A DNA stretch of 21,312 bases, taken from UHGV virus genome UHGV-1468037. One strand, 5' to 3'. The notes under the pieces are model-generated. The model was given only the letters and a program-made list of their open reading frames with translations, had not been told where the DNA came from and ran no database searches. The position numbers and the translations under genes are program-made. Each line of letters opens with the position of its first letter. Position 1 is the first letter of the stretch. This DNA comes from a virus. Positions 1 to 10,508 of the stretch are shown in pieces.

Positions 1-82
1 CTTTATACGCAATACATTTACTTTCCTCTTTTGATGATCTTAAATGTCTTATTTTTCGTAATGTGTATAACAAGGAATAGTG

Positions 83-598
83 ATGAAATTAAAAAAATGT
101 CTTCTGCCTGTGGCAATGTTAGCGTCATTTACTCTGGCAGGATGCCAGTCAAATGCTGATGATCATGCCGCCGATGTTTATCAAACCGATCAACTGAATA
201 CCAAACAAGAAACTAAAACCGTTAATATTATTTCCATTCTTCCCGCAAAAGTTGCCGTAGACAACGCCCAAAATAAACGGAACGCACAAGCCTTCGGCGC
301 GCTTATTGGCGCTGTCGCTGGCGGTGTTATCGGCCACAACGTCGGGTCTGGCAGCAATTCCGGAACGACAGCAGGTGCAGTTGGCGGCGGAGCTGTTGGC
401 GCAGCAGCGGGTTCTATGGTGAATGATAAAACCTTAGTGGAAGGTGTTTCTTTAACATATAAGGAAGGCACCAAAGTGTATACCTCCACCCAGGTGGGTA
501 AAGAGTGCCAGTTTACGACAGGTTTAGCCGTTGTTATTACCACGACGTATAACGAAACGCGTATTCAGCCAAATACCAAATGTCCTGAAAAGAGCTAA
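83..598 (+). CDS. yfgH: Outer-membrane lipoprotein with glycine-zipper domain (YfgH-like)
   Basis: ORF 80..598; I place the start at ATG 83 (AAGGA 5 nt upstream) rather than the GTG at 80. Signal peptide ends in lipobox LAGC. Gly/Ala-rich glycine-zipper segment GALIGAVAGGVIGHNVGSG. Length (172 aa) and tandem position with a 179 aa neighbour match E. coli yfgH-yfgI from memory; symbol is tentative. Confidence 0.7.
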   Translation: MKLKKCLLPVAMLASFTLAGCQSNADDHAADVYQTDQLNTKQETKTVNIISILPAKVAVDNAQNKRNAQAFGALIGAVAGGVIGHNVGSGSNSGTTAGAVGGGAVGAAAGSMVNDKTLVEGVSLTYKEGTKVYTSTQVGKECQFTTGLAVVITTTYNETRIQPNTKCPEKS

Positions 599-613
599 TA
601 ATCAGGAGGAGTC

Positions 614-1153
614 ATGAAGAAAGTTTTTCTTTGCGCCATCTTAGCCTCCTTAAGCTATCCGGCTATCGCCTCATCATTGCAGGATCAACTCTCGGCTGTC
701 GCAGAAGCGGAACAGCAAGGTAAAAATGAAGAGCAAAGGCAGCATGACGAATGGGTCGCGGAGCGCAACAGGGAAATCCAGCAAGAGAAGCAACGTCGCG
801 CAAACGCCCAGGCCGCGGCTAATAAAAGAGCGGCAACGGCAGCAGCGAATAAGAAAGCTCGTCAGGATAAACTGGACGCCGAAGCCACTGCGGACAAAAA
901 ACGCGATCAAAGTTATGAAGATGAGCTACGTAGCTTAGAGATTCAGAAGCAAAAACTGGCGCTGGCGAAAGAAGAAGCCCGCGTTAAGCGCGAAAACGAA
1001 TTTATCGATCAGGAACTGAAGCACAAAGCTGCGCAAACCGATGTGGTGCAATCTGAAGCTGACGCAAACAGAAATATGACTGAAGGCGGTCGCGATCTGA
1101 TGAAAAGCGTGGGTAAAGCAGAAGAGAACAAATCGGACAGCTGGTTTAACTAA
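614..1153 (+). CDS. yfgI: Secreted/periplasmic charged coiled-coil protein (YfgI-like)
   Basis: Strong RBS AGGAGG 5 nt upstream of the ATG. N-terminal signal peptide MKKVFLCAILASLSYPAIASS. Highly charged K/E/R/Q/A-rich body. 179 aa, immediately downstream of the yfgH-like gene; symbol is tentative. Confidence 0.65.
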   Translation: MKKVFLCAILASLSYPAIASSLQDQLSAVAEAEQQGKNEEQRQHDEWVAERNREIQQEKQRRANAQAAANKRAATAAANKKARQDKLDAEATADKKRDQSYEDELRSLEIQKQKLALAKEEARVKRENEFIDQELKHKAAQTDVVQSEADANRNMTEGGRDLMKSVGKAEENKSDSWFN

Positions 1154-1197
1154 GCGATGTCAGTAACTTCAAGCCTATGATTCGTGAGTATAAAAAA

Positions 1198-1224
1198 CCC
1201 TCTGTAGTAACAGAGGGTTTTGTT
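1198..1224 (+). terminator. Rho-independent terminator downstream of the yfgI-like gene
   Basis: Stem CCCTCTG / CAGAGGG with a 6-nt loop, followed by TTTTGTT. An A-run precedes it, so it could act in both directions. Confidence 0.7.
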
Positions 1225-1253
1225 CATTCATAGTACAGGGTTCAAATCATTCC

Positions 1254-1290
1254 CACTCAATTATTTACGACAATCATAACCAATTGAGTG
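1254..1290. repeat. Inverted repeat in the host/prophage junction region
   Basis: 9-bp arms CACTCAATT (1254-1262) and AATTGAGTG (1282-1290) separated by 19 bp, in the non-coding gap between the yfgI terminator and the Rz stop. Possible att-associated or recombinase-binding element; function unknown. Confidence 0.3.
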
Positions 1291-3575: not shown

Positions 3576-6551
3576 TTACATTGACATTAATATAAACATG
3601 GCTAATTCGTCATAACGAATTCCGTAGCGTCCTCCTGCTTTTTTTACAAGAATCATATCTCCTGTTTTATATTGAGAATAAATTTTCTCACCTGTATCAG
3701 GATCTGTGCTCTCTTCAGTTATCACCTCTTCATCCCATACGTCAGGCCATTCATCGTAACACCAAAAAGCATATTGCTCAGGGTTTAAACCATGCTTTCT
3801 AAGAATATCCCCTACGGTTTGAGCGCCAACGCCAAAATGATACCTGGACGACTCAATTCCTTTGTGATTAATTGAGTCATTAAATTTAAATTTATAGATG
3901 ACTGACTTTATTTCAATAGCGGCATTACGCTCTGCATTAAGAATATCATATCTTGTTTTAAGAGTTTCATCTGACGTATTGATTGACCCGGTTCCTGCAT
4001 AGATAACAGAGCATCTGTTTGATGGCTGTCCAATAGCTTTAACATTATCATCAACAGGAGCTATTTTATTAGCATCTGCCAACCACCAGTCTGTTCCATC
4101 AGCGTGACCGATTCTTACTCTTATCCCACTTCTAATATTTAAACTTCCAGTATTGCTCTGTAAATTACAATCTCCTGACGTTGGTCCAAGCAGTACAGTT
4201 TTACCAACACCACATACTACTCTGGCATTTCCTTTTTGTGATACGAGTCTTGACTCACCTCCTGACTGCTCAGGAAGAGATTTATGGTCTATAAATGCAT
4301 CGCGGGGGTTAAATACACCGTCTCCAGAATTATATCTTCCTCCTGTATAGTTGTTAAATACAGGACCCCAGTCAACGCCATTGCCTTCAGAGCACCCGAC
4401 CATTCTAAGCACTCGAGTATTCCCTGCTGCATATGGTAATGAGCTTGTTGATTGCCGGGAAGCTATCATACGTGCTCCATAACCAATAGCATTACCACCA
4501 TTTATAGTTACATATGCTTGCTGGCTTTCGAAATATGTACTGTAAAAGTTCATATTTCCACAGTCATGCAGATGAATAAGAACATCATCCCATCCCTGAA
4601 TGGTTCCCGCATGTACCTGTACACCGCGAACTGGTTCCCCTGAAACCTCCATACACTCTGATGGCCGGCTGAATGGCTGAGACAGGTATTGCGATGTGGC
4701 AAGCAGATGTGTGTGGTGATACAGGCTGGTAATGTAGCAATCGAAAAATTGCGTTCCCGCCATACCAAAGTTATCTATGTCATTTCGCCGTATAGTAGAA
4801 CCTACTGTTGCCTCAGAAGCGTTAGACACTCCAGTAAATACTAACTTATCACCGGATACGGATAATCCTGAATAAGTGAAATTCCTGCCTCCAGATCTTA
4901 AAACCCCGGACGTTTCGAAGGTGTGGCTTGCTGACCATGGGATTTCGATAGTGCTGGACGTTACCGCTGTAATTCGGAATACATCATGGGCGCGGATCGA
5001 AATACCCTTGAATCCCTGGAATCTACAGTGATAATAGTTTTCATCCTCGCCCTGAGCGGCCAGCGTGCCAGATACAGGAATGTTCGTTTTTAAAAGTGCC
5101 GTCTTGCGCCAGTATCCAACCACCTGCAAATTGCGGTATTCATTGCCAAAAGACGCACGTGACCAAATACCTACATCCCACTCATCGCCAAGACCGGTAT
5201 TTGCAATGTCTTTATAACCATCCAGCCCATTGAAATATGGAACAACACGAAAGTTCTCAAGGCGAACACATCCTGTCTCAGGCATCAATATTGCGGCAGA
5301 GAATGGTTTAAGCGTGGCTCTTGTAGTCCCATTAGCATCACCGTTAGTAAAATCCAATAAATCATATGATGACGCAGGTGCCGTTGTTGTATACGGGTCT
5401 TCGGAAGATGGATTAGAAACCACACCACCACTAACATCCATATTAGAAACACAATCTACAGTATATTTTTTATTTCCTACCCCGTACATCAGGAATGTGG
5501 TCCCTGTGGTAATATCAGGAGCAAATGTTGCAGTATATCCAGAGACCCATTTGCCCACACCAAGACCAATTATCCCACCACCAGAAACAGGTGTTAACGT
5601 ATCCGTTATTACATACGCATTATCAGTACCATAAATAACCTTTCCTGTGTTAATGGCAGCTTGCCACGCGGCCCAGTCTATTGACTGAGATAATGAGTCA
5701 ACAAAAGGATATAAGGATTTTGCTTCAGAAATTGAAGAAAACCTCTCAGATAATGGATGATATTTCCCATCCCCAATTGCTCCGAATTGTTTTACATTTA
5801 AGAAAAGAGCATTGTTTTCATGCTGAGTTATAGTTACAGCCCAGGCAAATGGCTGCCTTACACCAATTAATGCATCACCTTTTCCTTCTCCTGCGCTAGA
5901 TAATTGCAGAAGAACATCTGCGGCACTGCCAGAAGGCACAGGTACACCTATAGGTTTACCATTGACGATACCAATGACAGTTTCTTCCAGTAAATGAACT
6001 GGAGGAAGTGGTTCAATAAAATTATCTGGAACCCGTAATGTCCTGTTAATATTCACATTAACAATATTATCAACATAATTCTTTGTAGCTGCATCTTGAG
6101 GCTTGGAAGGATCGCGCAAATTGCGGATGTAATTATTCAAAGCATCGTAATAGTTTGCCACAAATGATGGTTTGCGCAGCGCCAGGCTAAACCAACTGCG
6201 GACTTGCTGTATCAGCATCGTCAGCTTATCTAACGCGTCTTCATGCACCTCAGCGAAAAACTTTCCCTGATTTCGCAGATCAGTTTCCTGCGTAACCGGT
6301 AGCTCTCGTGATATAGAAATCTGATAACCGTTAGCTAACGCCTTCGACAGAATTACATTACCGCCATTATATCCACCAGCCCCAGTGACAGTGTAATCAG
6401 TATCAAGAGCCAGCACAGCGATATTTTCGTCAAGGTCAACCACCTGTACTGCCAGATCAGATTCCTTGAAAACCCTAAAGGTATACGGAAATGATGTCGT
6501 AACGCCGTTACCTGTGTATTCGTTGTGGTCAACTTCGGTTGAGACCGTCAT
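3576..6551 (-). CDS. Tail fiber/tailspike with conserved N-terminal virion-attachment domain, central probable glycanase region, and C-terminal intramolecular chaperone (peptidase S74-like) domain
   Basis: 991 aa. N-terminus (TGNGVTTSFPYTFRVFKESDLAVQV...EVHEDALDKLT) resembles the conserved N-terminal domain of podovirus tail fibers/tailspikes. C-terminus (IYKFKFND...HFGVGAQTVGDIL...GGRYGIRYDEL) resembles the self-cleaving chaperone domain. GGAG RBS 8 nt upstream of the start. Confidence 0.75.
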   Translation of the reverse strand: MTVSTEVDHNEYTGNGVTTSFPYTFRVFKESDLAVQVVDLDENIAVLALDTDYTVTGAGGYNGGNVILSKALANGYQISISRELPVTQETDLRNQGKFFAEVHEDALDKLTMLIQQVRSWFSLALRKPSFVANYYDALNNYIRNLRDPSKPQDAATKNYVDNIVNVNINRTLRVPDNFIEPLPPVHLLEETVIGIVNGKPIGVPVPSGSAADVLLQLSSAGEGKGDALIGVRQPFAWAVTITQHENNALFLNVKQFGAIGDGKYHPLSERFSSISEAKSLYPFVDSLSQSIDWAAWQAAINTGKVIYGTDNAYVITDTLTPVSGGGIIGLGVGKWVSGYTATFAPDITTGTTFLMYGVGNKKYTVDCVSNMDVSGGVVSNPSSEDPYTTTAPASSYDLLDFTNGDANGTTRATLKPFSAAILMPETGCVRLENFRVVPYFNGLDGYKDIANTGLGDEWDVGIWSRASFGNEYRNLQVVGYWRKTALLKTNIPVSGTLAAQGEDENYYHCRFQGFKGISIRAHDVFRITAVTSSTIEIPWSASHTFETSGVLRSGGRNFTYSGLSVSGDKLVFTGVSNASEATVGSTIRRNDIDNFGMAGTQFFDCYITSLYHHTHLLATSQYLSQPFSRPSECMEVSGEPVRGVQVHAGTIQGWDDVLIHLHDCGNMNFYSTYFESQQAYVTINGGNAIGYGARMIASRQSTSSLPYAAGNTRVLRMVGCSEGNGVDWGPVFNNYTGGRYNSGDGVFNPRDAFIDHKSLPEQSGGESRLVSQKGNARVVCGVGKTVLLGPTSGDCNLQSNTGSLNIRSGIRVRIGHADGTDWWLADANKIAPVDDNVKAIGQPSNRCSVIYAGTGSINTSDETLKTRYDILNAERNAAIEIKSVIYKFKFNDSINHKGIESSRYHFGVGAQTVGDILRKHGLNPEQYAFWCYDEWPDVWDEEVITEESTDPDTGEKIYSQYKTGDMILVKKAGGRYGIRYDELAMFILMSM

Positions 6552-6654
6552 GTTAAATCTCCAGATAGTCGCAGCACCCGTTGCGCCGCATATCCGGTTA
6601 TTCTATTACCTGAAAAACCACATATGGATAGAAATACTGTGAATATGAATAGAT

Positions 6655-6671
6655 ATTACCTTTCGGGTAAT
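6655..6671. promoter_or_regulatory. Dyad motif copy 1 (ATTACC TTTCG GGTAAT)
   Basis: Perfect inverted half-sites TTACC/GGTAA with 5-bp spacer; one of four copies in the island; 76 bp upstream of the 85 aa gene. Confidence 0.5.
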
Positions 6672-6707
6672 TTGCAAAACGTGCTGGATAGCAAACAAAT
6701 TATTTGC

Positions 6708-6727
6708 TACTGTATAAATATACAGTT
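6708..6727. promoter_or_regulatory. LexA box (SOS operator)
   Basis: TACTGTATAAATATACAGTT: perfect CTGT-N8-ACAG with an AT-only spacer; about 20 bp upstream of the 85 aa gene start codon (6747). Confidence 0.75.
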
Positions 6728-6746
6728 ATTGCATGGAGAAGATAAG

Positions 6747-7004
6747 ATGCAGCAGTATCACTATCCACTGGAAGACGGATTTACCGAAAGGATTCACACG
6801 CCGGGAGGCGTCAGGTCACTGGTGGAGGGATCGCACTTGATGAAATTACTCCGGGATCTCGATAAGGATGGATTTAATGTCGATGGCCCACTTGCCGAAC
6901 TGACTGCACTGATTAACTACGTCACCAGCTCACAGATGTCTATGCGGGATCTGCAAACACATCTCGACTATTGTGCCGAACAATTACGAAAACAAACCCG
7001 GTAA
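6747..7004 (+). CDS. Small antirepressor-like protein; standalone paralog of the C-terminal domain of the downstream Ant-like protein
   Basis: 85 aa from ATG 6747 (GGAGA RBS). The upstream part of ORF 6624..7004 is rejected because it contains the LexA box and dyad site. Aligns by eye with the Ant-like C-terminus (LM.LL..L..DG..V.G..AELT ... RD.QTH..Y). Confidence 0.65.
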   Translation: MQQYHYPLEDGFTERIHTPGGVRSLVEGSHLMKLLRDLDKDGFNVDGPLAELTALINYVTSSQMSMRDLQTHLDYCAEQLRKQTR

Positions 7005-7010
7005 ATTTAA

Positions 7011-7028
7011 AGGCCGCAAGAGCGGCCT
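7011..7028. terminator. Bidirectional terminator between convergent genes
   Basis: Stem AGGCCGC / GCGGCCT with loop AAGA, T-rich on the plus side and A-rich before. Overlaps the stop codon of the minus-strand 242 aa gene. Confidence 0.55.
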
Positions 7029-7755
7029 ATCGTTTCGCTTTGTGCTCATCCCAGCACGTTTTGCACCATGCCATTAAGCCGTCCGCATTTTGATTATTAG
7101 GGTAAAAGCTGGTTCGTTTTCTGCGGACATTACAAATTGGGCACCACTTCATATGGCGTGTATTCTTTGGGCCATCGAGACACCTTGCACACCATTTAGT
7201 CAATCCATCTGGATTTTTTGACGATTTCCTGAATTTTTCATATGGAAGGTTTATTCTGCATCGCAAGCACTGCTTGCTACCACTTGAAACTCTGTTAGCT
7301 GATTCTTCTTTTGGCAGCGATACAGAAGGTATTCTTGCTGGCTCTGATATTGCCTGAGGTGCTTTTTTAGATGACTGAGACGATATGTCATCACCAGGGA
7401 ATCTTCCATGATATGCCGGACGCGTTGACACTCCAGGTGGAATCTCAGCTGTAAACGGCTTTGGCTGAATCAGTTGCCTCTCTTTTGCTAACTCCTGCTG
7501 TTTATAATATGTCTGGATTACCGCACTATCATAAGCAGGAGGTGCGGAAATATTAGGCGCATTACCTCCAGTTTTTTGAAACTGAGTAGAGGTGTGTTCT
7601 ATCACCTGTGTACGATTAATCGTTATCTCCCCATCTTCGGTCTTTATCGTTTTGTTATGATTAACGACCGTACGATCAGAGATCTTAGTCTTGTTCTGGT
7701 TGATAACGTAAATAATCACCGCAACCACACCAACAACTATCCAGAAAACTTCCAT
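7027..7755 (-). CDS. Membrane-anchored protein with two C-terminal zinc-ribbon (CxxC-N19/20-WCxxC) motifs; function unknown
   Basis: 242 aa. N-terminal TM helix (VFWIVVGVVAVIIYVI) followed by basic residues. Low-complexity linker. Two repeats: CLRC...WCARC and CPIC...WCKTC, in a basic context. GAGGA RBS. Divergent from the ant-like gene. Confidence 0.7.
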   Translation of the reverse strand: MEVFWIVVGVVAVIIYVINQNKTKISDRTVVNHNKTIKTEDGEITINRTQVIEHTSTQFQKTGGNAPNISAPPAYDSAVIQTYYKQQELAKERQLIQPKPFTAEIPPGVSTRPAYHGRFPGDDISSQSSKKAPQAISEPARIPSVSLPKEESANRVSSGSKQCLRCRINLPYEKFRKSSKNPDGLTKWCARCLDGPKNTRHMKWCPICNVRRKRTSFYPNNQNADGLMAWCKTCWDEHKAKR

Positions 7756-7774
7756 TGCTTTTCCTCACAATAAC

Positions 7775-7791
7775 ATTACCTTAAAGGTAAT
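7775..7791. promoter_or_regulatory. Dyad motif copy 2 (ATTACC TTAAA GGTAAT)
   Basis: Perfect 17-bp palindrome in the 5' UTR of the 242 aa gene, about 20 nt from its start codon, and at the far end of the ant-like leader. Confidence 0.5.
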
Positions 7792-7867
7792 ATCTTGCTT
7801 TCAGGTGATCAAGCGTTAAACGCAATCAACCAAATACGGTTGATTTTAATGTTTCTTCGCGCTTATC

Positions 7868-7884
7868 ATTACCTTTACGGTAAA
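7868..7884. promoter_or_regulatory. Dyad motif copy 3 (ATTACC TTTAC GGTAAA)
   Basis: Same TTACC-N5-GGTAA architecture, in the divergent intergenic region between the 242 aa gene and the ant-like gene. Confidence 0.45.
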
Positions 7885-7918
7885 TTTACATTGCACTCCT
7901 CTTGTGCCATAGTAATCG

Positions 7919-8049
7919 GGCACTGGCAAAATCCAGTGCCGGGATTGGCGTCCCGGATTACTACAGAGGCACATATGCCGCATAAGCGGTTTTTTTATGT
8001 GTAAAGCGCACCTATTCTATGGTGGGCTGTGTGGGGGCACCGAAAGGTG
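7919..8049 (+). promoter_or_regulatory. Structured leader upstream of ant-like gene (multiple hairpins including a terminator-like hairpin plus T7 run)
   Basis: Hairpins GGCACTGG/CCAGTGCC (7919-7940) and CCGGGA/TCCCGG (7939-7956) overlap and are mutually exclusive. CCGC-ATAA-GCGG followed by TTTTTTT (7978-7996). GCACC-GAAA-GGTGC (8037-8049). Confidence 0.4.
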
Positions 8050-8149
8050 CGCCGGGTCCTTTGTAGCCGGTTACGCCAACCCTGCACAGTTCACCACCAA
8101 CCGATTGGCGTCGGTAGTGGTGATTAACCTAACTACAAAGGTGATCACT

Positions 8150-8836
8150 ATGACTGCTAACGTAACCCCATCTGTTTTTCATTTTGAATCAGAAGCAACC
8201 ATTCGAGCCATTGTTATTGATGGAAATCCTTGGTTTGTTGCCAAAGACGTTATTAAAGCTCTTCAACTGACAAACCCCACTATGTCAATAAAATCTCTTG
8301 ATGATGATGAAAGGGCTAAATTTAACTTAGGCCGTCAAGGCGAAACCAATATTATCAACGAGTCAGGCCTCTACACACTGATCCTCCGCTGCCGCGACGC
8401 AGTGACACCAGGCACTATCCCCTACCGCTTTCGCAAATGGGTTACAGGTGAGGTTCTTCCTCAGATCCGCCGCACCGGAAGCTACATTAAAAACTCGCTC
8501 CCGCAGGAAGAGCGCATAAAGATGGTTGCCGACCAGGTAGCCAACGCCACGGCGTCAGCAGTAATGCAGGCGATGAAGATAGAGAACAAAACCTACAGTG
8601 CCCCACTGAAGCCAGGCTACCGCAGTCTGATTCATTCGCCGTCGGGTGTTCTCGGCCTGACGGAGAACTCATTGCTGATGAATCTGCTGAATCAGTTGCA
8701 GGACGACGGGCATGATGTATCGGGCGCGGCGGCGGAACTGACCACCATGTTCTGCTACATCGTCGGTGTGAGCAAATGCCTGCGTGATATCCAGACGCAC
8801 GCGGAGTACATCAACGACAAGGCAGGGTTCTTCTGA
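8150..8836 (+). CDS. Antirepressor-like protein with N-terminal BRO-N domain and C-terminal antirepressor-type domain
   Basis: 228 aa from ATG 8150 (AAGG 8 nt upstream). N-terminus matches the BRO-N pattern (IDGNPWFVAKDV...INESGLYTLIL...FRKWVTGEVLPQIRRTGSY). The longer ORF from 7997 would include the hairpin leader and lacks an RBS. Confidence 0.75.
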   Translation: MTANVTPSVFHFESEATIRAIVIDGNPWFVAKDVIKALQLTNPTMSIKSLDDDERAKFNLGRQGETNIINESGLYTLILRCRDAVTPGTIPYRFRKWVTGEVLPQIRRTGSYIKNSLPQEERIKMVADQVANATASAVMQAMKIENKTYSAPLKPGYRSLIHSPSGVLGLTENSLLMNLLNQLQDDGHDVSGAAAELTTMFCYIVGVSKCLRDIQTHAEYINDKAGFF

Positions 8837-8845
8837 CAGAACGGC

Positions 8846-8868
8846 GGCACAGGGATGTGCCTTTAAAT
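8846..8868 (+). terminator. Weak terminator-like hairpin after ant-like gene
   Basis: GGCACA-GGGA-TGTGCC followed by TTTAAATAATT. The T-run is short, so termination is probably partial. Confidence 0.3.
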
Positions 8869-8908
8869 AATTCTGTACAGATTGCAGACTGTGGGTGAAT
8901 AGCGTACT

Positions 8909-8925
8909 ATTACCTTAAAGGTAAA
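8909..8925. promoter_or_regulatory. Dyad motif copy 4 (ATTACC TTAAA GGTAAA)
   Basis: Core identical to copy 2. Abuts the Shine-Dalgarno AAGGAGG of the 55 aa gene. Confidence 0.5.
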
Positions 8926-8936
8926 GGAGGCGCGAT

Positions 8937-9104
8937 ATGACAGCGTTGAAAAATCGTACTCAGCACAATGAACAAGCCAAGCAATGCTGGGATGTCATTG
9001 GAAAAGTTATGCTTGGCCGCGCAAGCAAAGAGCGCGACAAGGATATGGTTTACCAGACAGGAACATCTTTCAGCGACTTCAAGGCGGCATTTCGCTCCAA
9101 ATAG
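8937..9104 (+). CDS. Small basic protein (55 aa), unknown function
   Basis: Not in the ORF track (<60 aa). ATG 8937 is preceded by a consensus SD AAGGAGG with 6-nt spacing. Translated by hand: MTALKNRTQHNEQAKQCWDVIGKVMLGRASKERDKDMVYQTGTSFSDFKAAFRSK. TAG stop at 9102-9104. Confidence 0.55.
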   Translation: MTALKNRTQHNEQAKQCWDVIGKVMLGRASKERDKDMVYQTGTSFSDFKAAFRSK

Positions 9105-9124
9105 AAGCACATTAGGAGTTTGTC

Positions 9125-9565
9125 TTGAAGTTTAACATTAGAATATCTAATAGTTTTCTAAATGGGGAAAGCAACACCCCTTTCGCTGTAGACGGACCTT
9201 TCCTTACTGACGATGAAATAAAAATCATACAAAGGTTTTTAGAAGATGTTGCCAATGGAAGGGCGCTTGTTGGAAAAAACAAGCCATCGTGGGTTGATGA
9301 TAACCATGATAAAATTCCCGGCTCAGACAATTATGAGCAAGAGAATTATTGGCATTATCATTGTGGGCCAACATGGTATCCAAACACATTTAAGAATTAT
9401 ACCATTAACTTAAATTTCAACCCTGGCGGAATGCATTCTAATGAATGCATTCATTATGCAAAAAATGATAATGAAATTGTCGTTGTTGGATTTTCAAGAG
9501 AACACATACCTTTCCTTTCATCAGATGGAAACGACAATCCGCTTTTTTATGATGAAGAAGAATAG
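9125..9565 (+). CDS. Hypothetical protein (146 aa) with acidic C-terminus, unknown function
   Basis: TTG start with AGGAG 6 nt upstream; 20 nt after the stop of the 55 aa gene, so probably an operon. Strongly AT-rich codon usage. No signal peptide. Followed by a strong terminator. Confidence 0.6.
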   Translation: MKFNIRISNSFLNGESNTPFAVDGPFLTDDEIKIIQRFLEDVANGRALVGKNKPSWVDDNHDKIPGSDNYEQENYWHYHCGPTWYPNTFKNYTINLNFNPGGMHSNECIHYAKNDNEIVVVGFSREHIPFLSSDGNDNPLFYDEEE

Positions 9566-9588
9566 CCCGCGGCGCGGGCTTTTTTGTG
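9564..9588 (+). terminator. Rho-independent terminator after the 146 aa gene
   Basis: Stem AGCCCGC / GCGGGCT with a 3-nt loop, followed by TTTTT. Confidence 0.75.
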
Positions 9589-9625
9589 TCTGCGGATTCC
9601 CACCCAGGCGGCGGTGGCATTCGTT

Positions 9626-9650
9626 AAAAACAAGGCCGCGAAAGCGGCCT
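9626..9650 (-). terminator. Rho-independent terminator after the 283 aa minus-strand gene
   Basis: Stem AGGCCGC / GCGGCCT with loop GAAA; the plus-strand A-run (9626-9630) gives a T-run on the minus strand. Same stem sequence as the hairpin at 7011-7028. Confidence 0.6.
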
Positions 9651-9656
9651 GTTTGA

Positions 9657-10508
9657 TCACTGTGCAGTTTTCGCTGATCGATTTTCAGCTCTAAATTCAA
9701 GAACCGTTTCAATATTTCTTTCCTTCAGCATATCAATAACATTTTTATTCATTTGACTATCACTGGTTAATAACTGGTAAACGTTGCTTCTCTCTTTATC
9801 AGAGTTTTCTTTAACAGCTGCTTTGCATGCCAAATGCTTATTGAAATTTTCTACATCGCTAGTACAGGAATTTACGGCTGCTGATGAAATATCAGACGCT
9901 GAAGAAACACCGTCATCCAAACGTTTTATAGCATTTTCTATACATGAGTTAAGGGAATAAACGACAACTGAGCGATACCCTTCAGACGCACACCATTCTA
10001 AATTTCTTGAAGGATCGAGTGGTTTTACTTCGCTGGATTGAATTAACTTGTCAAAAACTGACTTATATTCAATCTGTTTTTTATCTATAGCCCATACTTC
10101 AGTAGCTGATTTATAATTCCCCGTATGCCTATTAACATCAAATCCATGTTTTATAAGCAAATCTGCCCATGAAAGATTTATTGATTCATTGTTATGAGGC
10201 CATTTTCCTGTCAGAACCGCCCCCATAGACCCCATATATCCGCCATATGATGGTATAGCACCATGGCTCAGTAACTTCTCTGCAACCACAGGGCAATTAA
10301 TTACATAAGAGGCGTAAAGCCCATTCCATAAAGCCCCTCTATAGTAATCGCCACGATTAGGTTCTTTTAAGTCGATAGCCTTTGATAATTGTTCGCACGT
10401 TTTGCATGCATCAAAGTTATCCTTATTGCATTGCAATGAACTGGCAGCTGTAGGATTTACAGAGACTATTGAAAGCACTATGCCAAAAAACAAATTTATT
10501 TTTTTCAT
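9657..10508 (-). CDS. Secreted cysteine-rich protein (283 aa), unknown function; accessory (moron) gene
   Basis: Sec-type signal peptide MKKINLFFGIVLSIVSVNPTAAS. Many Cys in the mature part. AT-rich codon usage unlike the neighbouring virion genes. Start codon 1 nt after the stop of the 1129 aa gene, so likely translationally coupled. Confidence 0.7.
   Translation of the reverse strand: MKKINLFFGIVLSIVSVNPTAASSLQCNKDNFDACKTCEQLSKAIDLKEPNRGDYYRGALWNGLYASYVINCPVVAEKLLSHGAIPSYGGYMGSMGAVLTGKWPHNNESINLSWADLLIKHGFDVNRHTGNYKSATEVWAIDKKQIEYKSVFDKLIQSSEVKPLDPSRNLEWCASEGYRSVVVYSLNSCIENAIKRLDDGVSSASDISSAAVNSCTSDVENFNKHLACKAAVKENSDKERSNVYQLLTSDSQMNKNVIDMLKERNIETVLEFRAENRSAKTAQ

What the first reader, a model, noticed from the sequence alone, without database searches (positions are those of the whole stretch)
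6698..7004. Perfect LexA box driving a small paralog of the antirepressor C-terminal domain
TACTGTATAAATATACAGTT (6708-6727) is a textbook CTGT-N8-ACAG SOS box, about 20 bp upstream of an 85 aa gene. That gene's product aligns by eye with the last ~85 residues of the BRO-N antirepressor-like protein encoded 1.1 kb downstream. This suggests an SOS-triggered small antirepressor, or a modulator of the larger Ant, which would couple prophage induction to LexA cleavage instead of repressor autocleavage. Such a strategy is known for several temperate phages, but the split arrangement (small LexA-controlled domain plus full-length Ant with a separate leader) is unusual.
Basis: partly seen in the sequence, partly recalled or inferred. 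Interest (0 to 1): 0.7.

Follow-up and report, generated by a model that had tools for sequence, protein, structure and literature searches.

The report
LexA-controlled prophage antirepressor, known type
The small gene is the E. coli counterpart of an already characterised phage "antirepressor" that wakes a dormant virus when the cell's DNA is damaged, and a second copy of the same protein module sits nearby in a larger protein controlled by small RNAs, so the finding is real but mostly ordinary.

Summary
TACTGTATAAATATACAGTT (6708-6727) is the only strong LexA box in the window. It ends 19 bp before an 85-aa gene (6747-7004). That protein matches residues 147-224 of the BRO-N protein (8150-8836): 41% identity, E=3e-16.

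The window is an epsilon15/phiV10-like (Uetakevirus) prophage at the E. coli guaA site. The small protein is 87% identical to Ant of Salmonella phage SPC32H (PDB 5D50 chain E). SPC32H Ant is the characterised LexA-repressed antirepressor that inactivates a non-cleavable repressor, Rep. The box aligns with the SPC32H LexA site, and the constitutive mutant SPC32N differs there by ACAG>AAAG. So the "SOS-triggered small antirepressor" reading is correct, but it is already known.

The larger gene is a separate module:
- It lies behind an isrK + C4 antisense-RNA leader of the P1/P7 immI type.
- The C4 loops and their mRNA targets covary in three places across variants.
- Rep operators flank the module.
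- An 82%-identical protein from phage vB_EcoP_ZX5 lowered lysogeny when overexpressed.

The same C-terminal Ant module is fused to Bro-N, AntA, ORF6N or Rha heads. About 9% of complete E. coli genomes carry each half, so the arrangement is common. The one element I found undescribed is a single effector domain placed under two controls.

The parts
6656..6670 (.). Rep operator core TTACC-N5-GGTAA, between the tailspike gene and small ant
   Evidence: One of 4 perfect copies in the window; 0 of 100 shuffles reach the observed 5 matches at up to 1 mismatch. It aligns with the site annotated 'protein_bind repressor' in the epsilon15 record.
6708..6727 (.). LexA (SOS) box TACTGTATAAATATACAGTT
   Evidence: It is conserved at the same position in 9 Uetakevirus ant upstream regions, and the SPC32N mutant carries AAAG here.
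6736..6739 (+). Shine-Dalgarno GGAG of small ant, 8 nt after the LexA box
   Evidence: Read directly from the sequence; invariant in alignment A1.
6747..7004 (+). Small ant gene, 85 aa: orthologue of SPC32H Ant (epsilon15 gp19, phiV10p24)
   Evidence: 86.7% identity to SPC32H ant; 5D50_E E=1.4e-46; phrog_450; dN/dS 0.06-0.07 against the Salmonella orthologues.
7011..7028 (.). GC-rich hairpin between the convergent small ant gene and the 242-aa ORF; terminator-like
   Evidence: The scan scored it on the minus strand; on the plus strand the T-run is weak.
7027..7755 (-). Intervening 242-aa ORF (N-terminal hydrophobic stretch, Cys-rich C-terminus); not part of the antirepressor circuit as far as shown
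   Evidence: phrog_6762, unknown function. Absent from phiV10 and ZX5; present in TL-2011b and in 122 E. coli genomes.
7776..7790 (.). Rep operator core
7869..7883 (.). Rep operator core, ending 2 bp before the -35 of the isrK promoter
   Evidence: Conserved in all 6 leader variants.
7885..7913 (+). Promoter-like site TTTACA-17-CATAGT (with TG), placing the start near 7920, the 5' end of isrK
   Evidence: conserved in alignment A3. This is a consensus match only.
7920..7996 (+). isrK RNA with its own terminator. It carries copies of both C4 target motifs: a1 TTGGCGT at 7945-7951 and b1 CTACAGAGG at 7962-7970
   Evidence: Rfam RF01394, 76.8 bits against a gathering score of 50. a1 is confirmed computationally; b1 is read from the sequence and differs from b2 by one base.
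8015..8101 (+). C4 antisense RNA (P1/P7 immI type). Loop b' CCTTTGTAG at 8058-8066; single-stranded a' ACGCCAA at 8073-8079
   Evidence: Rfam RF01695, 79.5 bits against a gathering score of 45.
8105..8141 (+). C4 target region in the ant leader: a2 TTGGCGT at 8105-8111 and b2 CTACAAAGG at 8133-8141. b2 ends 8 nt before the ATG and overlaps the AAGGTGA ribosome-binding site
   Evidence: Perfect complementarity and three-way compensatory covariation across 6 loci.
8150..8836 (+). Large antirepressor, 228 aa: Bro-N domain (residues 18-104) plus an Ant-type C-terminal domain (residues ~147-228, nt 8588-8833)
   Evidence: (5D50_E E=1.9e-13). 82% identical to ZX5 ORF4. dN/dS of the C-terminal domain is 0.02-0.13.
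8910..8924 (.). Rep operator core just upstream of the 55-aa ORF at 8937-9104

Best explanation
The window is an epsilon15/phiV10-type (Uetakevirus) prophage inserted at the guaA-yfgI site of E. coli.

Module 1, the finding itself. Gene 6747-7004 encodes the orthologue of SPC32H Ant. In the lysogen, host LexA binds the box at 6708-6727. The box ends 8 nt before the Shine-Dalgarno sequence, so it must overlap the ant promoter or transcription start, or block transcription coming from upstream. DNA damage activates RecA and LexA cleaves itself. Ant is then made and binds the prophage repressor Rep. Rep is an HTH protein with no autocleavage domain. Ant binding takes Rep off its ATTACC-N5-GGTAAT operators, and lytic genes switch on.

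Module 2. A second, diverged copy of the Ant domain (41% identical) forms the C-terminus of the Bro-N protein at 8150-8836. This gene is transcribed from a promoter abutted by a Rep operator. Its leader is a P1/P7 immI-type cassette: the isrK RNA (carrying decoy copies of the targets), the C4 antisense RNA, and then the target sites a2 and b2, with b2 covering the ribosome-binding site. C4 blocks translation of this larger antirepressor, and isrK probably relieves the block, as it does in Gifsy-1.

How the two relate. The two genes are independent delivery routes for one repressor-inactivating domain. One answers to DNA damage. The other answers to an RNA immunity switch and, probably, to loss of Rep.

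Shown here: sequence homology, the box, the RNA families, complementarity and covariation, the operators, and purifying selection. Taken from the literature on close relatives: LexA control of Ant, Ant-Rep binding, and antirepressor activity of the Bro-N protein. Inferred: that this particular copy behaves the same way, that the large protein targets the same Rep, and any feed-forward between the two modules.
For: Identity of the element:
- TL-2011b matches at 94.6% over 83% of 6400-9200, and phiV10, ZX5 and phiv142-3 also match.
- Host genes yfgH/yfgI and the att core lie at the left end of the window.

Small Ant:
- 86.7% identical to SPC32H 'ant'; 5D50_E E=1.4e-46.
- Same position between the tailspike and injection-protein genes as in SPC32H, epsilon15 and phiV10.
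- The LexA box is unique and strong and conserved across four host genera. The natural SPC32N mutation falls in it.
- dN/dS is 0.06-0.07.

Rep:
- The closest complete prophage encodes a Rep homologue: 5D50_A E=1.9e-41, HTH_3 only, no S24.
- The operators match those annotated in epsilon15.
- Secondary sources describe Ant as a tetramer that binds two Rep dimers (PMC9638917; PMC9986798), and describe LexA-dependent Ant synthesis, citing Kim and Ryu 2013 (PMC7380047).

Large Ant:
- C-terminus against 5D50_E, E=1.9e-13; it also hits phrog_450; dN/dS 0.02-0.13.
- isrK and C4 score above Rfam gathering thresholds and are present before every variant gene examined.
- a1/a'/a2 and b1/b'/b2 covary together. 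There are 2 a-types and 4 b-types, and cognate C4-leader complementarity (14-16 nt) exceeds all but one of the 30 non-cognate pairings.
- ZX5 ORF4 is 82% identical. Overexpressing it cut lysogens from 1e9 to 1e6 (PMC9782041).
- The mechanism of isrK-dependent translational activation of an antirepressor is in PMC4825925; c4 in P1/P7 is summarised in PMC12197685.
Against: - No experiment exists on this exact copy.
- The primary SPC32H papers (Kim and Ryu 2013; Kim et al. 2016) were not in the library. The details of LexA binding and of the Ant-Rep interface come from my recollection of the abstracts and from secondary citations.
- The consensus scan found no sigma-70 promoter next to the box, so the -35/-10 assignment is unresolved.
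- The rep gene is outside the window. It was examined only in a 97.7%-identical prophage.
- E. coli Rep is only about 42% identical to epsilon15 Rep (PMC9782041), so Ant-Rep pairing in this lineage is inferred.
- The large protein's C-terminal domain is only 41% identical to small Ant. It could bind a different partner.
- The ZX5 evidence is overexpression only.
- A Rep operator 40 bp upstream of the LexA box might mean Rep also affects ant or the divergent tailspike promoter. This was not resolved.
Confidence: 0.85

Rival explanations
1. The small protein is mainly a partner or modulator of the larger Bro-N antirepressor. For example, it could form mixed oligomers through the shared Ant domain, tuning or poisoning the large protein rather than acting on Rep itself.
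For: The two share a domain. SPC32H Ant is reported to be a tetramer (PMC9638917), so mixed assemblies are conceivable. Both genes co-occur in most E. coli prophages of this type.
Against: SPC32H and epsilon15 carry the small Ant and no large one. In SPC32H the small protein alone was crystallised in complex with Rep (5D50). phiV10 keeps an intact small ant while its large gene is truncated by a frameshift inside the shared domain. At 41% identity, co-assembly is uncertain.
Confidence: 0.08
2. The large Bro-N protein is not a Rep antagonist of this prophage. It would instead be an anti-immunity or cross-talk weapon aimed at the repressors of other resident or incoming phages, or a DNA-binding regulator whose C-terminal domain only mediates oligomerisation.
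For: - The C-terminal domain forms a clade distinct from small Ant.
- The same domain occurs in a Klebsiella AlpA/HicAB islet that resembles a satellite.
- C4-type cassettes define heteroimmunity in P1/P7 (PMC12197685), and at least 4 specificity types exist here.
- Bro-network proteins are described as DNA-interactive and domain-swapping (PMC10111431).
Against: - Overexpressing the 82%-identical ZX5 ORF4 shifted ZX5 itself away from lysogeny (PMC9782041).
- The module carries operators of this phage's own Rep.
- The C-terminal domain stays at least 91% identical under three different N-terminal heads within this one prophage family.
Confidence: 0.2
3. The LexA box is a chance palindrome, or it serves the divergent tailspike gene, and the small ORF is not SOS-regulated.
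For: No consensus promoter was found beside the box. CTGT-N8-ACAG alone occurs at least once in 19 of 100 shuffles.
Against: - The full 20-mer match never occurs in shuffles, and its matrix score exceeds every training site.
- The box is conserved at the same spot in phages of Escherichia, Salmonella, Enterobacter and Klebsiella, while the flanking DNA diverges.
- SPC32N, whose genome I recall differing from SPC32H at two nucleotides, has a substitution here, and the record annotates ant.
- The tailspike start codon is 157 bp away, on the far side of a Rep operator.
Confidence: 0.03

Closest known systems
Ant/Rep switch of Salmonella phage SPC32H (Kim and Ryu 2013, J Virol 87:11775; Kim et al. 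2016, PNAS; PDB 5D50, 5D4Z)
   Same: - 87% identical small protein.
- Same gene position and orientation next to the tailspike gene.
- LexA box at the same aligned position.
- Same operator palindrome as annotated in epsilon15, a Salmonella Uetakevirus like SPC32H.
- Rep homologue without a cleavage domain in the nearest complete relative.
   Different: - The host is E. coli, and the E. coli Rep is only about 42% identical to the Salmonella-lineage (epsilon15) Rep.
- SPC32H has nothing between ant and the injection genes. This prophage has a 4-kb accessory insert holding a second Ant-domain gene with an RNA leader.
immI region of phages P1 and P7 (c4 antisense RNA - icd - ant)
   Same: - C4 covariance-model hit at 79.5 bits.
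- Two C4 segments are complementary to two sites in the ant leader, one over the ribosome-binding site.
- Duplicate target copies lie upstream of C4.
- Specificity types differ by compensatory changes, as in P1/P7 heteroimmunity.
   Different: - No separate icd-like gene is evident. Only an in-frame ATG at 7997 reads through C4.
- The upstream target copies lie within an isrK-type terminated sRNA.
- The antirepressor is Bro-N plus an SPC32H-Ant domain.
- The promoter is flanked by operators of the primary repressor.
isrK-orf45-anrP locus of Salmonella prophage Gifsy-1 (Hershko-Shalev et al. 2016, PMC4825925)
   Same: An isrK RNA with a leaky terminator is followed by a structured RNA and then an antirepressor-like gene. 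[quoted passage not shown]
   Different: No discrete orf45 is seen here. The downstream output in Gifsy-1 is the AntQ antiterminator. Here the protein carries a domain known from a Rep-Ant crystal structure.
ORF4 anti-repressor of E. coli phage vB_EcoP_ZX5 (Li et al. 2022, PMC9782041)
   Same: 82% identical overall, with one substitution in the last ~146 aligned residues. Same isrK + C4 leader. Same genus and the same guaA integration site.
   Different: That paper did not notice the small LexA-controlled ant (annotated as hypothetical), the RNA leader (called an 'ash family protein' ORF), or the homology to SPC32H Ant.
Other LexA-controlled antirepressors: Tum of coliphage 186, GfoA/GfhA of the Gifsy prophages, AntC of N15
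   Same: The logic is the same. A LexA-repressed small protein inactivates a non-cleavable repressor after DNA damage (PMC3121763 listed; PMC7380047).
   Different: No sequence relationship was detected. Pfam and PDB searches with the small protein returned only SPC32H Ant. This is an analogue, not a family member.
[quoted passage not shown] 2002, from my own knowledge; PMC10111431)
   Same: Interchangeable N-terminal heads (Bro-N, AntA, ORF6N, Phage_pRha) on a constant C-terminal module, next to C4/isrK RNAs.
   Different: The C-terminal module here has no Pfam family and is labelled 'unknown function' in PHROGs. It nevertheless equals a structurally solved stand-alone antirepressor, which identifies it as the likely effector domain.

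Membership tests
SPC32H-type Ant (small LexA-controlled Uetakevirus antirepressor) | Full-length sequence homology to SPC32H Ant (PDB 5D50 chain E) | tested here: met
   86.7% identity over residues 2-84; phmmer E=1.4e-46.
SPC32H-type Ant (small LexA-controlled Uetakevirus antirepressor) | LexA box immediately upstream, at the position where the SPC32N constitutive mutation lies | tested here: met
   Alignment A1 of 9 loci; SPC32N has ACAG>AAAG in the aligned box. Box strength.
SPC32H-type Ant (small LexA-controlled Uetakevirus antirepressor) | Conserved position, divergent from the tailspike gene and facing the injection-protein genes | tested here: met
SPC32H-type Ant (small LexA-controlled Uetakevirus antirepressor) | Cognate Rep of the SPC32H type: HTH plus C-terminal tetramerisation domain, no RecA-dependent autocleavage domain | tested here: inconclusive
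   The rep gene lies outside the window. In the 97.7%-identical prophage of strain 85.0412, the Rep candidate matches 5D50_A at E=1.9e-41 and has only HTH Pfam hits. Rep operators are present in the window.
SPC32H-type Ant (small LexA-controlled Uetakevirus antirepressor) | Induction by DNA damage, LexA binding, and Ant-Rep complex formation | not testable with these tools
   Needs a reporter fusion, a gel-shift assay and a pull-down.
P1/P7 immI-type C4 antisense control of an antirepressor | C4 RNA with the family's structure, encoded upstream of ant on the same strand | tested here: met
   RF01695, 79.5 bits against a gathering score of 45, full model 1-87.
P1/P7 immI-type C4 antisense control of an antirepressor | Two exposed C4 segments complementary to two leader sites, one over the ribosome-binding site, with duplicate target copies upstream | tested here: met
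   b' 8058-8066 pairs with b2 8133-8141; a' 8073-8079 pairs with a2 8105-8111; a1 and b1 lie inside isrK.
P1/P7 immI-type C4 antisense control of an antirepressor | Specificity set by covarying antisense and target sequences | tested here: met
   2 a-types and 4 b-types, each changed coordinately at three places. Cognate complementarity is 14-16 nt and non-cognate is 0-13 nt in 29 of 30 pairings; the exception is L010 C4 against the phiV10 leader (15 nt against 14 cognate).
P1/P7 immI-type C4 antisense control of an antirepressor | Small upstream ORF (icd / orf45) translationally coupled to ant | tested here: inconclusive
   There is no separate ORF. An ATG at 7997 with no evident Shine-Dalgarno reads in frame through C4 into the ant gene.
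P1/P7 immI-type C4 antisense control of an antirepressor | Processing of C4 from the ant precursor transcript, and translational block in vivo | not testable with these tools
   Needs a northern blot or primer extension, plus lacZ fusions.
BRO family (Bro-N domain proteins) | Pfam PF02498 domain above the gathering score | tested here: met
   72.3 bits against a cut-off of 25.6, residues 18-104.
186 Tum / Gifsy GfoA-type antirepressors | Sequence homology to Tum or GfoA | not tested
   No direct comparison was made. Pfam and PDB searches with the small protein returned nothing but SPC32H Ant. Treated as a functional analogue only.

The most novel reading that the evidence does not exclude
One portable repressor-inactivating domain (the SPC32H-Ant fold; phrog_450, no Pfam family) is wired into two orthogonal inputs in the same prophage. 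One input is LexA, reporting DNA damage. The other is an isrK/C4 RNA switch whose promoter is guarded by Rep operators.

Under this reading, loss of Rep would feed forward into more antirepressor. The C4 specificity types (at least 4) would add a second, RNA-based immunity layer among otherwise homoimmune Uetakevirus prophages.

The interchangeable Bro-N, AntA, ORF6N and Rha heads would then be generic accessories. The short C-terminal module would be the real specificity determinant. That rule might extend to the many uncharacterised Bro-network 'antirepressors'.
Probability: 0.4. Interest if true: 0.5.

Novelty: new member of a known kind. Interest (0 to 1): 0.3.

Why it matters
The practical value is mainly in annotation.

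- About one in ten complete E. coli genomes carries this small gene labelled 'hypothetical protein', and PHROGs lists its family as 'unknown function'. It is nevertheless a close orthologue of a biochemically and structurally solved SOS-dependent induction switch.
- Recognising it predicts that these prophages are induced by DNA-damaging antibiotics through LexA and not through repressor cleavage. The group includes relatives of the O157 typing phages and of TL-2011b, which came from an EHEC outbreak strain.
- The link between small Ant and the C-terminus of the Bro-N, AntA, ORF6N and Rha proteins gives a testable assignment of the effector domain in a class of 'antirepressors' whose mechanism is mostly unknown.
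- The covarying C4/isrK cassettes offer a clean natural series for studying RNA-based immunity specificity.

Tried and rejected
- Primary literature. Kim and Ryu 2013 and Kim et al. 2016 (by DOI, PMC id and PubMed id) and the epsilon15 genome paper are not held. I relied on GenBank annotation, PDB entries and secondary citations.
- Promoter scan. The consensus scan found no sigma-70 site at the small ant gene. Manual hexamer candidates (for example TGGATA-16-TACTGT) are weak, so I do not assign them.
- RNA duplex folding. Whole-RNA duplex folding of C4 or isrK against the leader was uninformative: the shuffled mean was -37 against -45.9 observed. I replaced it with exact-complement and covariation analysis.
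- Structure prediction. The AlphaFold2 model of the 228-aa protein was poor (mean pLDDT 49.6, pTM 0.26), so I ran no fold search. The sequence match to 5D50_E carries the fold inference.
- Operator spacing. My first operator pattern used N6 spacing and found nothing relevant. The correct spacing is N5.
- Word-indexed protein search. With the C-terminal domain as query it returned only 24 candidates and missed the full-length Bro-N proteins. The exhaustive profile search and BLAST on fetched loci filled the gap.
- Rejected ideas. The box as a chance palindrome. The small protein as a mere modulator of the large one. A second LexA box controlling the large gene: the next best matrix score in the window is 11.5 bits, inside the tailspike gene.
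Full report
**1. What is in the sequence**

- TACTGTATAAATATACAGTT occupies 6708-6727.
- GGAG lies at 6736-6739.
- An ATG at 6747 opens an 85-codon frame that stops at 7004.
- A 228-codon gene with a Pfam Bro-N domain (E=5e-20) runs 8150-8836.

The box is the only CTGT-N8-ACAG in the 21.3-kb window. It is also the only match to the 20-bp E. coli consensus at up to 3 mismatches, and none of 100 shuffles produced such a match. I built a weight matrix from 18 E. coli SOS boxes recalled from memory, so it is approximate. It scores the site 26.0 bits. That is above every training site, and the next best position in the window scores 11.5.

BLASTP of the small protein against the Bro-N protein gives 41% identity over 78 ungapped residues (147-224), E=3e-16.

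**2. Where the window comes from**

- Megablast places the region in epsilon15/phiV10-like podophages (genus Uetakevirus). TL-2011b matches at 94.6% over 83% of 6400-9200. phiV10, vB_EcoP_ZX5, phiv142-3 and the O157 typing phages 9 and 10 match the two ends.
- Comparison with a 97.7%-identical prophage in E. coli 85.0412 shows that the corresponding prophage end abuts the host genes yfgH and yfgI. The lysis cassette, tailspike, this locus and the injection and virion genes follow.
- The published att core ATTGAGTGGGAATGATT (PMC9782041) is at 1245-1261. The window therefore spans the right end of a prophage inserted at the guaA site.

**3. The small gene is a known antirepressor**

- tblastn finds the 85-aa protein in 35 phage records. 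These include Salmonella phages SPC32H and SPC32N, where the gene is annotated 'ant: anti-repressor protein', at 86.7% identity.
- The only PDB match is 5D50 chain E, 'Anti-repressor protein', E=1.4e-46. That entry also holds the SPC32H repressor.
- Secondary sources describe the system. LexA self-cleavage leads to synthesis of an Ant that inhibits the repressor by protein-protein contact (PMC7380047 citing Kim and Ryu 2013). [quoted passage not shown]
- I could not obtain the primary papers.

**4. The LexA box is the experimentally implicated one**

I aligned the tailspike-ant intergenic regions of nine phages from Escherichia, Salmonella, Enterobacter and Klebsiella hosts. The box sits at one conserved position while the flanks diverge; mean column identity is 76%.

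SPC32N carries TATAAAGT where SPC32H has TATACAGT. As I recall the abstract of Kim and Ryu 2013, SPC32N is the variant that makes Ant constitutively because of a single change in the LexA site. Its matrix score drops from 24.6 to 18.2 bits.

The box ends 8 nt before the Shine-Dalgarno sequence. Any promoter for this gene must therefore overlap the box or lie upstream of it. The consensus scan found no clear -35/-10 pair, so the exact promoter remains unassigned.

**5. The repressor side**

- The palindrome TTACC-N5-GGTAA occurs four times perfectly between 6656 and 8924. No shuffle reached the observed count.
- The epsilon15 GenBank record annotates this motif as the repressor-binding site. 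That genome holds 11 perfect cores, five of them flanking the repressor gene gp38, whose note cites 5D50_A.
- The rep gene is not in the window. In the near-identical prophage of strain 85.0412, the gene at the equivalent place encodes a 194-aa protein that matches 5D50_A at E=1.9e-41 over its full length. It has HTH Pfam hits only and no Peptidase_S24.
- The inference that induction depends on an antirepressor and not on repressor autocleavage therefore carries over to this lineage.

**6. The larger gene and its 'separate leader'**

Rfam finds two RNAs above gathering score on the plus strand ahead of the Bro-N gene: isrK at 7920-7996 (76.8 bits) and the C4 antisense RNA at 8015-8101 (79.5 bits). 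A promoter-like TTTACA-17-CATAGT would start transcription at about 7920. A Rep operator (7869-7883) ends 2 bp before its -35.

Complementarity:

| Element | C4 segment | Leader target (copy 2) | Copy in isrK (copy 1) |
|---|---|---|---|
| a | a' ACGCCAA, 8073-8079 | a2 TTGGCGT, 8105-8111 | a1 TTGGCGT, 7945-7951 |
| b | b' CCTTTGTAG, 8058-8066 | b2 CTACAAAGG, 8133-8141 | b1 CTACAGAGG, 7962-7970 (one base different) |

b2 ends 8 nt before the ATG and overlaps the AAGGTGA ribosome-binding site.

This is the layout of the P1/P7 immI region, where c4 RNA blocks antirepressor synthesis by pairing around the ribosome-binding site and sets heteroimmunity (PMC12197685). It is also the layout of the Gifsy-1 isrK locus. 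[quoted passage not shown]

**7. Covariation shows the RNA switch is functional**

Six variants of the cassette were aligned: the window, phiV10, TL-2011b and three E. coli prophages.
- The 'a' element occurs as TTGGCGT/ACGCCAA or as TTGGTCT/AGACCAA.
- The 'b' element occurs as CTACAAAGG, CTAAAAGG, CTAGTAGG or CTAAGTGG.
- Each variant has the matching C4 loop, and the change is repeated in the isrK copy. The isrK b copy is exact in four of the six loci and one base off in the window and L012. These are three-way compensatory changes.
- Cognate C4-leader complementarity (14-16 nt in two blocks) exceeds non-cognate complementarity (0-13 nt) in 29 of 30 pairings. The one exception is L010 C4 against the phiV10 leader, at 15 nt against 14 cognate.
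- isrK and C4 precede the variant gene in every locus examined.

**8. One effector domain, several heads, two controls**

- At this slot, the C-terminal ~90 residues stay 91-99% identical while the N-terminus is Bro-N (window, TL-2011b, L012, ZX5), ORF6N (L010) or AntA (L011). phiV10's copy is truncated by a frameshift inside the domain.
- An exhaustive profile search of 1.84 billion representatives found only 85 relatives. They are either stand-alone proteins of 86-95 aa or C-terminal domains on Bro-N, AntA, ORF6N or Phage_pRha proteins.
- Stand-alone members of the 'large-Ant' clade also exist. One is the last gene of the early-left operon beside the integrase in a Uetakevirus prophage. Another sits in a Klebsiella AlpA/HicAB islet.
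- Both paralogues are under strong purifying selection: dN/dS is 0.06-0.07 for small ant and 0.02-0.13 for the C-terminal domain.
- Pfam has no family for the domain. PHROGs puts both paralogues in phrog_450, 'unknown function'.
- Domain swapping in the 'Bro-N network' and its association with C4/isrK RNAs has been described for satellites (PMC10111431).

**9. Experimental support for the larger protein**

Li et al. 2022 overexpressed ORF4 of E. coli Uetakevirus vB_EcoP_ZX5, a Bro-domain 'anti-repressor'. Lysogens fell from 1e9 to 1e6 and repressor transcript fell by 75% (PMC9782041). ORF4 is 82% identical to the window's protein, with one substitution in the last ~146 aligned residues, and it has the same isrK + C4 leader. 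That paper does not mention LexA, SPC32H or the small gene.

**10. How common it is**

- Of 5426 complete E. coli genomes, 529 carry the small ant locus at 90% identity or better.
- 470 carry the C-terminal-domain DNA, at 583 places.
- 122 carry at least 80% of the exact 6600-8900 arrangement, including the intervening 242-aa ORF.
- SPC32H and epsilon15 lack the second module.

The arrangement is therefore typical of E. coli members of the genus and not unusual.

**11. Most likely mechanism**

Shown or strongly supported:
- LexA represses the small ant gene.
- DNA damage relieves that repression.
- Ant disables a non-cleavable Rep bound at ATTACC-N5-GGTAAT operators.

Probable:
- The Bro-N protein uses its Ant-type C-terminus against the same Rep.
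- It is held silent by C4 pairing over its ribosome-binding site.
- It is released by isrK and/or by transcript excess.

Speculative:
- Rep operators at its promoter make it a feed-forward amplifier once Rep starts to fall.
- The C4 types give an RNA-level immunity among related prophages.

The rivals are weighed in the structured fields: modulator role, a different target, chance box.

**12. Verdict**

It rediscovers a characterised, structurally solved system (the SPC32H Ant/Rep switch) in an E. coli relative. The larger gene belongs to a known class of RNA-controlled Bro-network antirepressors.

The modest new element is that the two share one effector domain placed under two different controls. 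I found no description of this in the papers I could search. I rate it a new member of a known kind, with interest of about 0.3.

Noticed in passing
window 7920-8141: The isrK and C4 RNAs precede the Bro-N gene. Their target motifs occur in three places (inside isrK, in C4, and in the leader over the ribosome-binding site). The motifs covary coordinately across six prophage variants, giving 2 'a' types and 4 'b' types.
   Followed up: yes
window 6656-6670, 7776-7790, 7869-7883, 8910-8924: Four perfect TTACC-N5-GGTAA palindromes equal the repressor operators annotated in epsilon15. Which promoter each one controls is unresolved (small ant or tailspike, the 242-aa ORF, isrK, the 55-aa ORF). The pair at 7776 and 7869 is 93 bp apart, which would suit looping by a tetrameric Rep.
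   Followed up: partly
window 7027-7755 (minus strand): A 242-aa ORF is wedged between the two ant genes. It has an N-terminal hydrophobic segment and a C-terminal Cys-rich region, with weak Stc1, endonuclease VII and Lar-like zinc-finger hits (phrog_6762, unknown function). It is absent from phiV10 and ZX5 and marked as a possible pseudogene in TL-2011b.
   Followed up: no
window 80-1261: The left end of the window appears to be host DNA: window ORFs at 80-598 and 614-1153 correspond to yfgH and yfgI by comparison with a near-identical prophage. The phage att core ATTGAGTGGGAATGATT is at 1245-1261. The window therefore crosses the prophage-chromosome junction at the guaA integration site.
   Followed up: partly
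window 7997-8149: An ATG at 7997, directly after the isrK terminator and with no evident Shine-Dalgarno sequence, reads in frame through the C4 RNA into the Bro-N gene, giving a 279-aa ORF. In ZX5 the same stretch is annotated as an 'ash family protein' ORF over the C4 RNA. It could be a spurious call or an orf45/icd-like coupling frame.
   Followed up: partly
L001:4918-5502 (phiV10p23): The 'putative anti-immunity protein' of phiV10 is truncated by a frameshift inside the Ant-type C-terminal domain. It diverges after residue 181 and is 194 aa long instead of about 231. The type phage of this E. coli group may therefore lack a working large antirepressor.
   Followed up: yes
L009:12541-13554 (TL-2011b); L010:4491-4974; L011:3991-4402: Some relatives carry further antirepressor genes in the same accessory slot. 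TL-2011b has a P22-type sar RNA (Rfam, 44.8 bits) next to a convergent gene. Two E. coli prophages have a second Ant or Bro-N gene on the opposite strand. The slot is a hotspot for antirepressor modules.
   Followed up: no
L015-L017:4665-5873 (Klebsiella); L018:5001-5294 (E. coli): Stand-alone 95-97-aa members of the large-Ant clade occur in two places. One is a Klebsiella islet with AlpA and a HicA/DUF1902 pair, which looks satellite-like. The other is the last gene of the early-left operon beside the integrase in a Uetakevirus prophage.
   Followed up: partly
window 8937-10508: This is accessory cargo after the Bro-N gene: a 55-aa ORF and a 146-aa ORF (phrog_8607 and phrog_5954, both unknown function) on the plus strand, and a 283-aa protein with a signal-peptide-like N-terminus (phrog_6118) on the minus strand. 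Related prophages carry a YafO toxin or a TacA antitoxin in this position instead.
   Followed up: no
alignment A1, Klebsiella phages BUCT711 and Kp4865-1 (L005, L007): The Klebsiella orthologues have ATGT instead of CTGT in the left half of the LexA box, and the matrix score falls to 17.2 bits. LexA control may be weaker or altered in that lineage.
   Followed up: no
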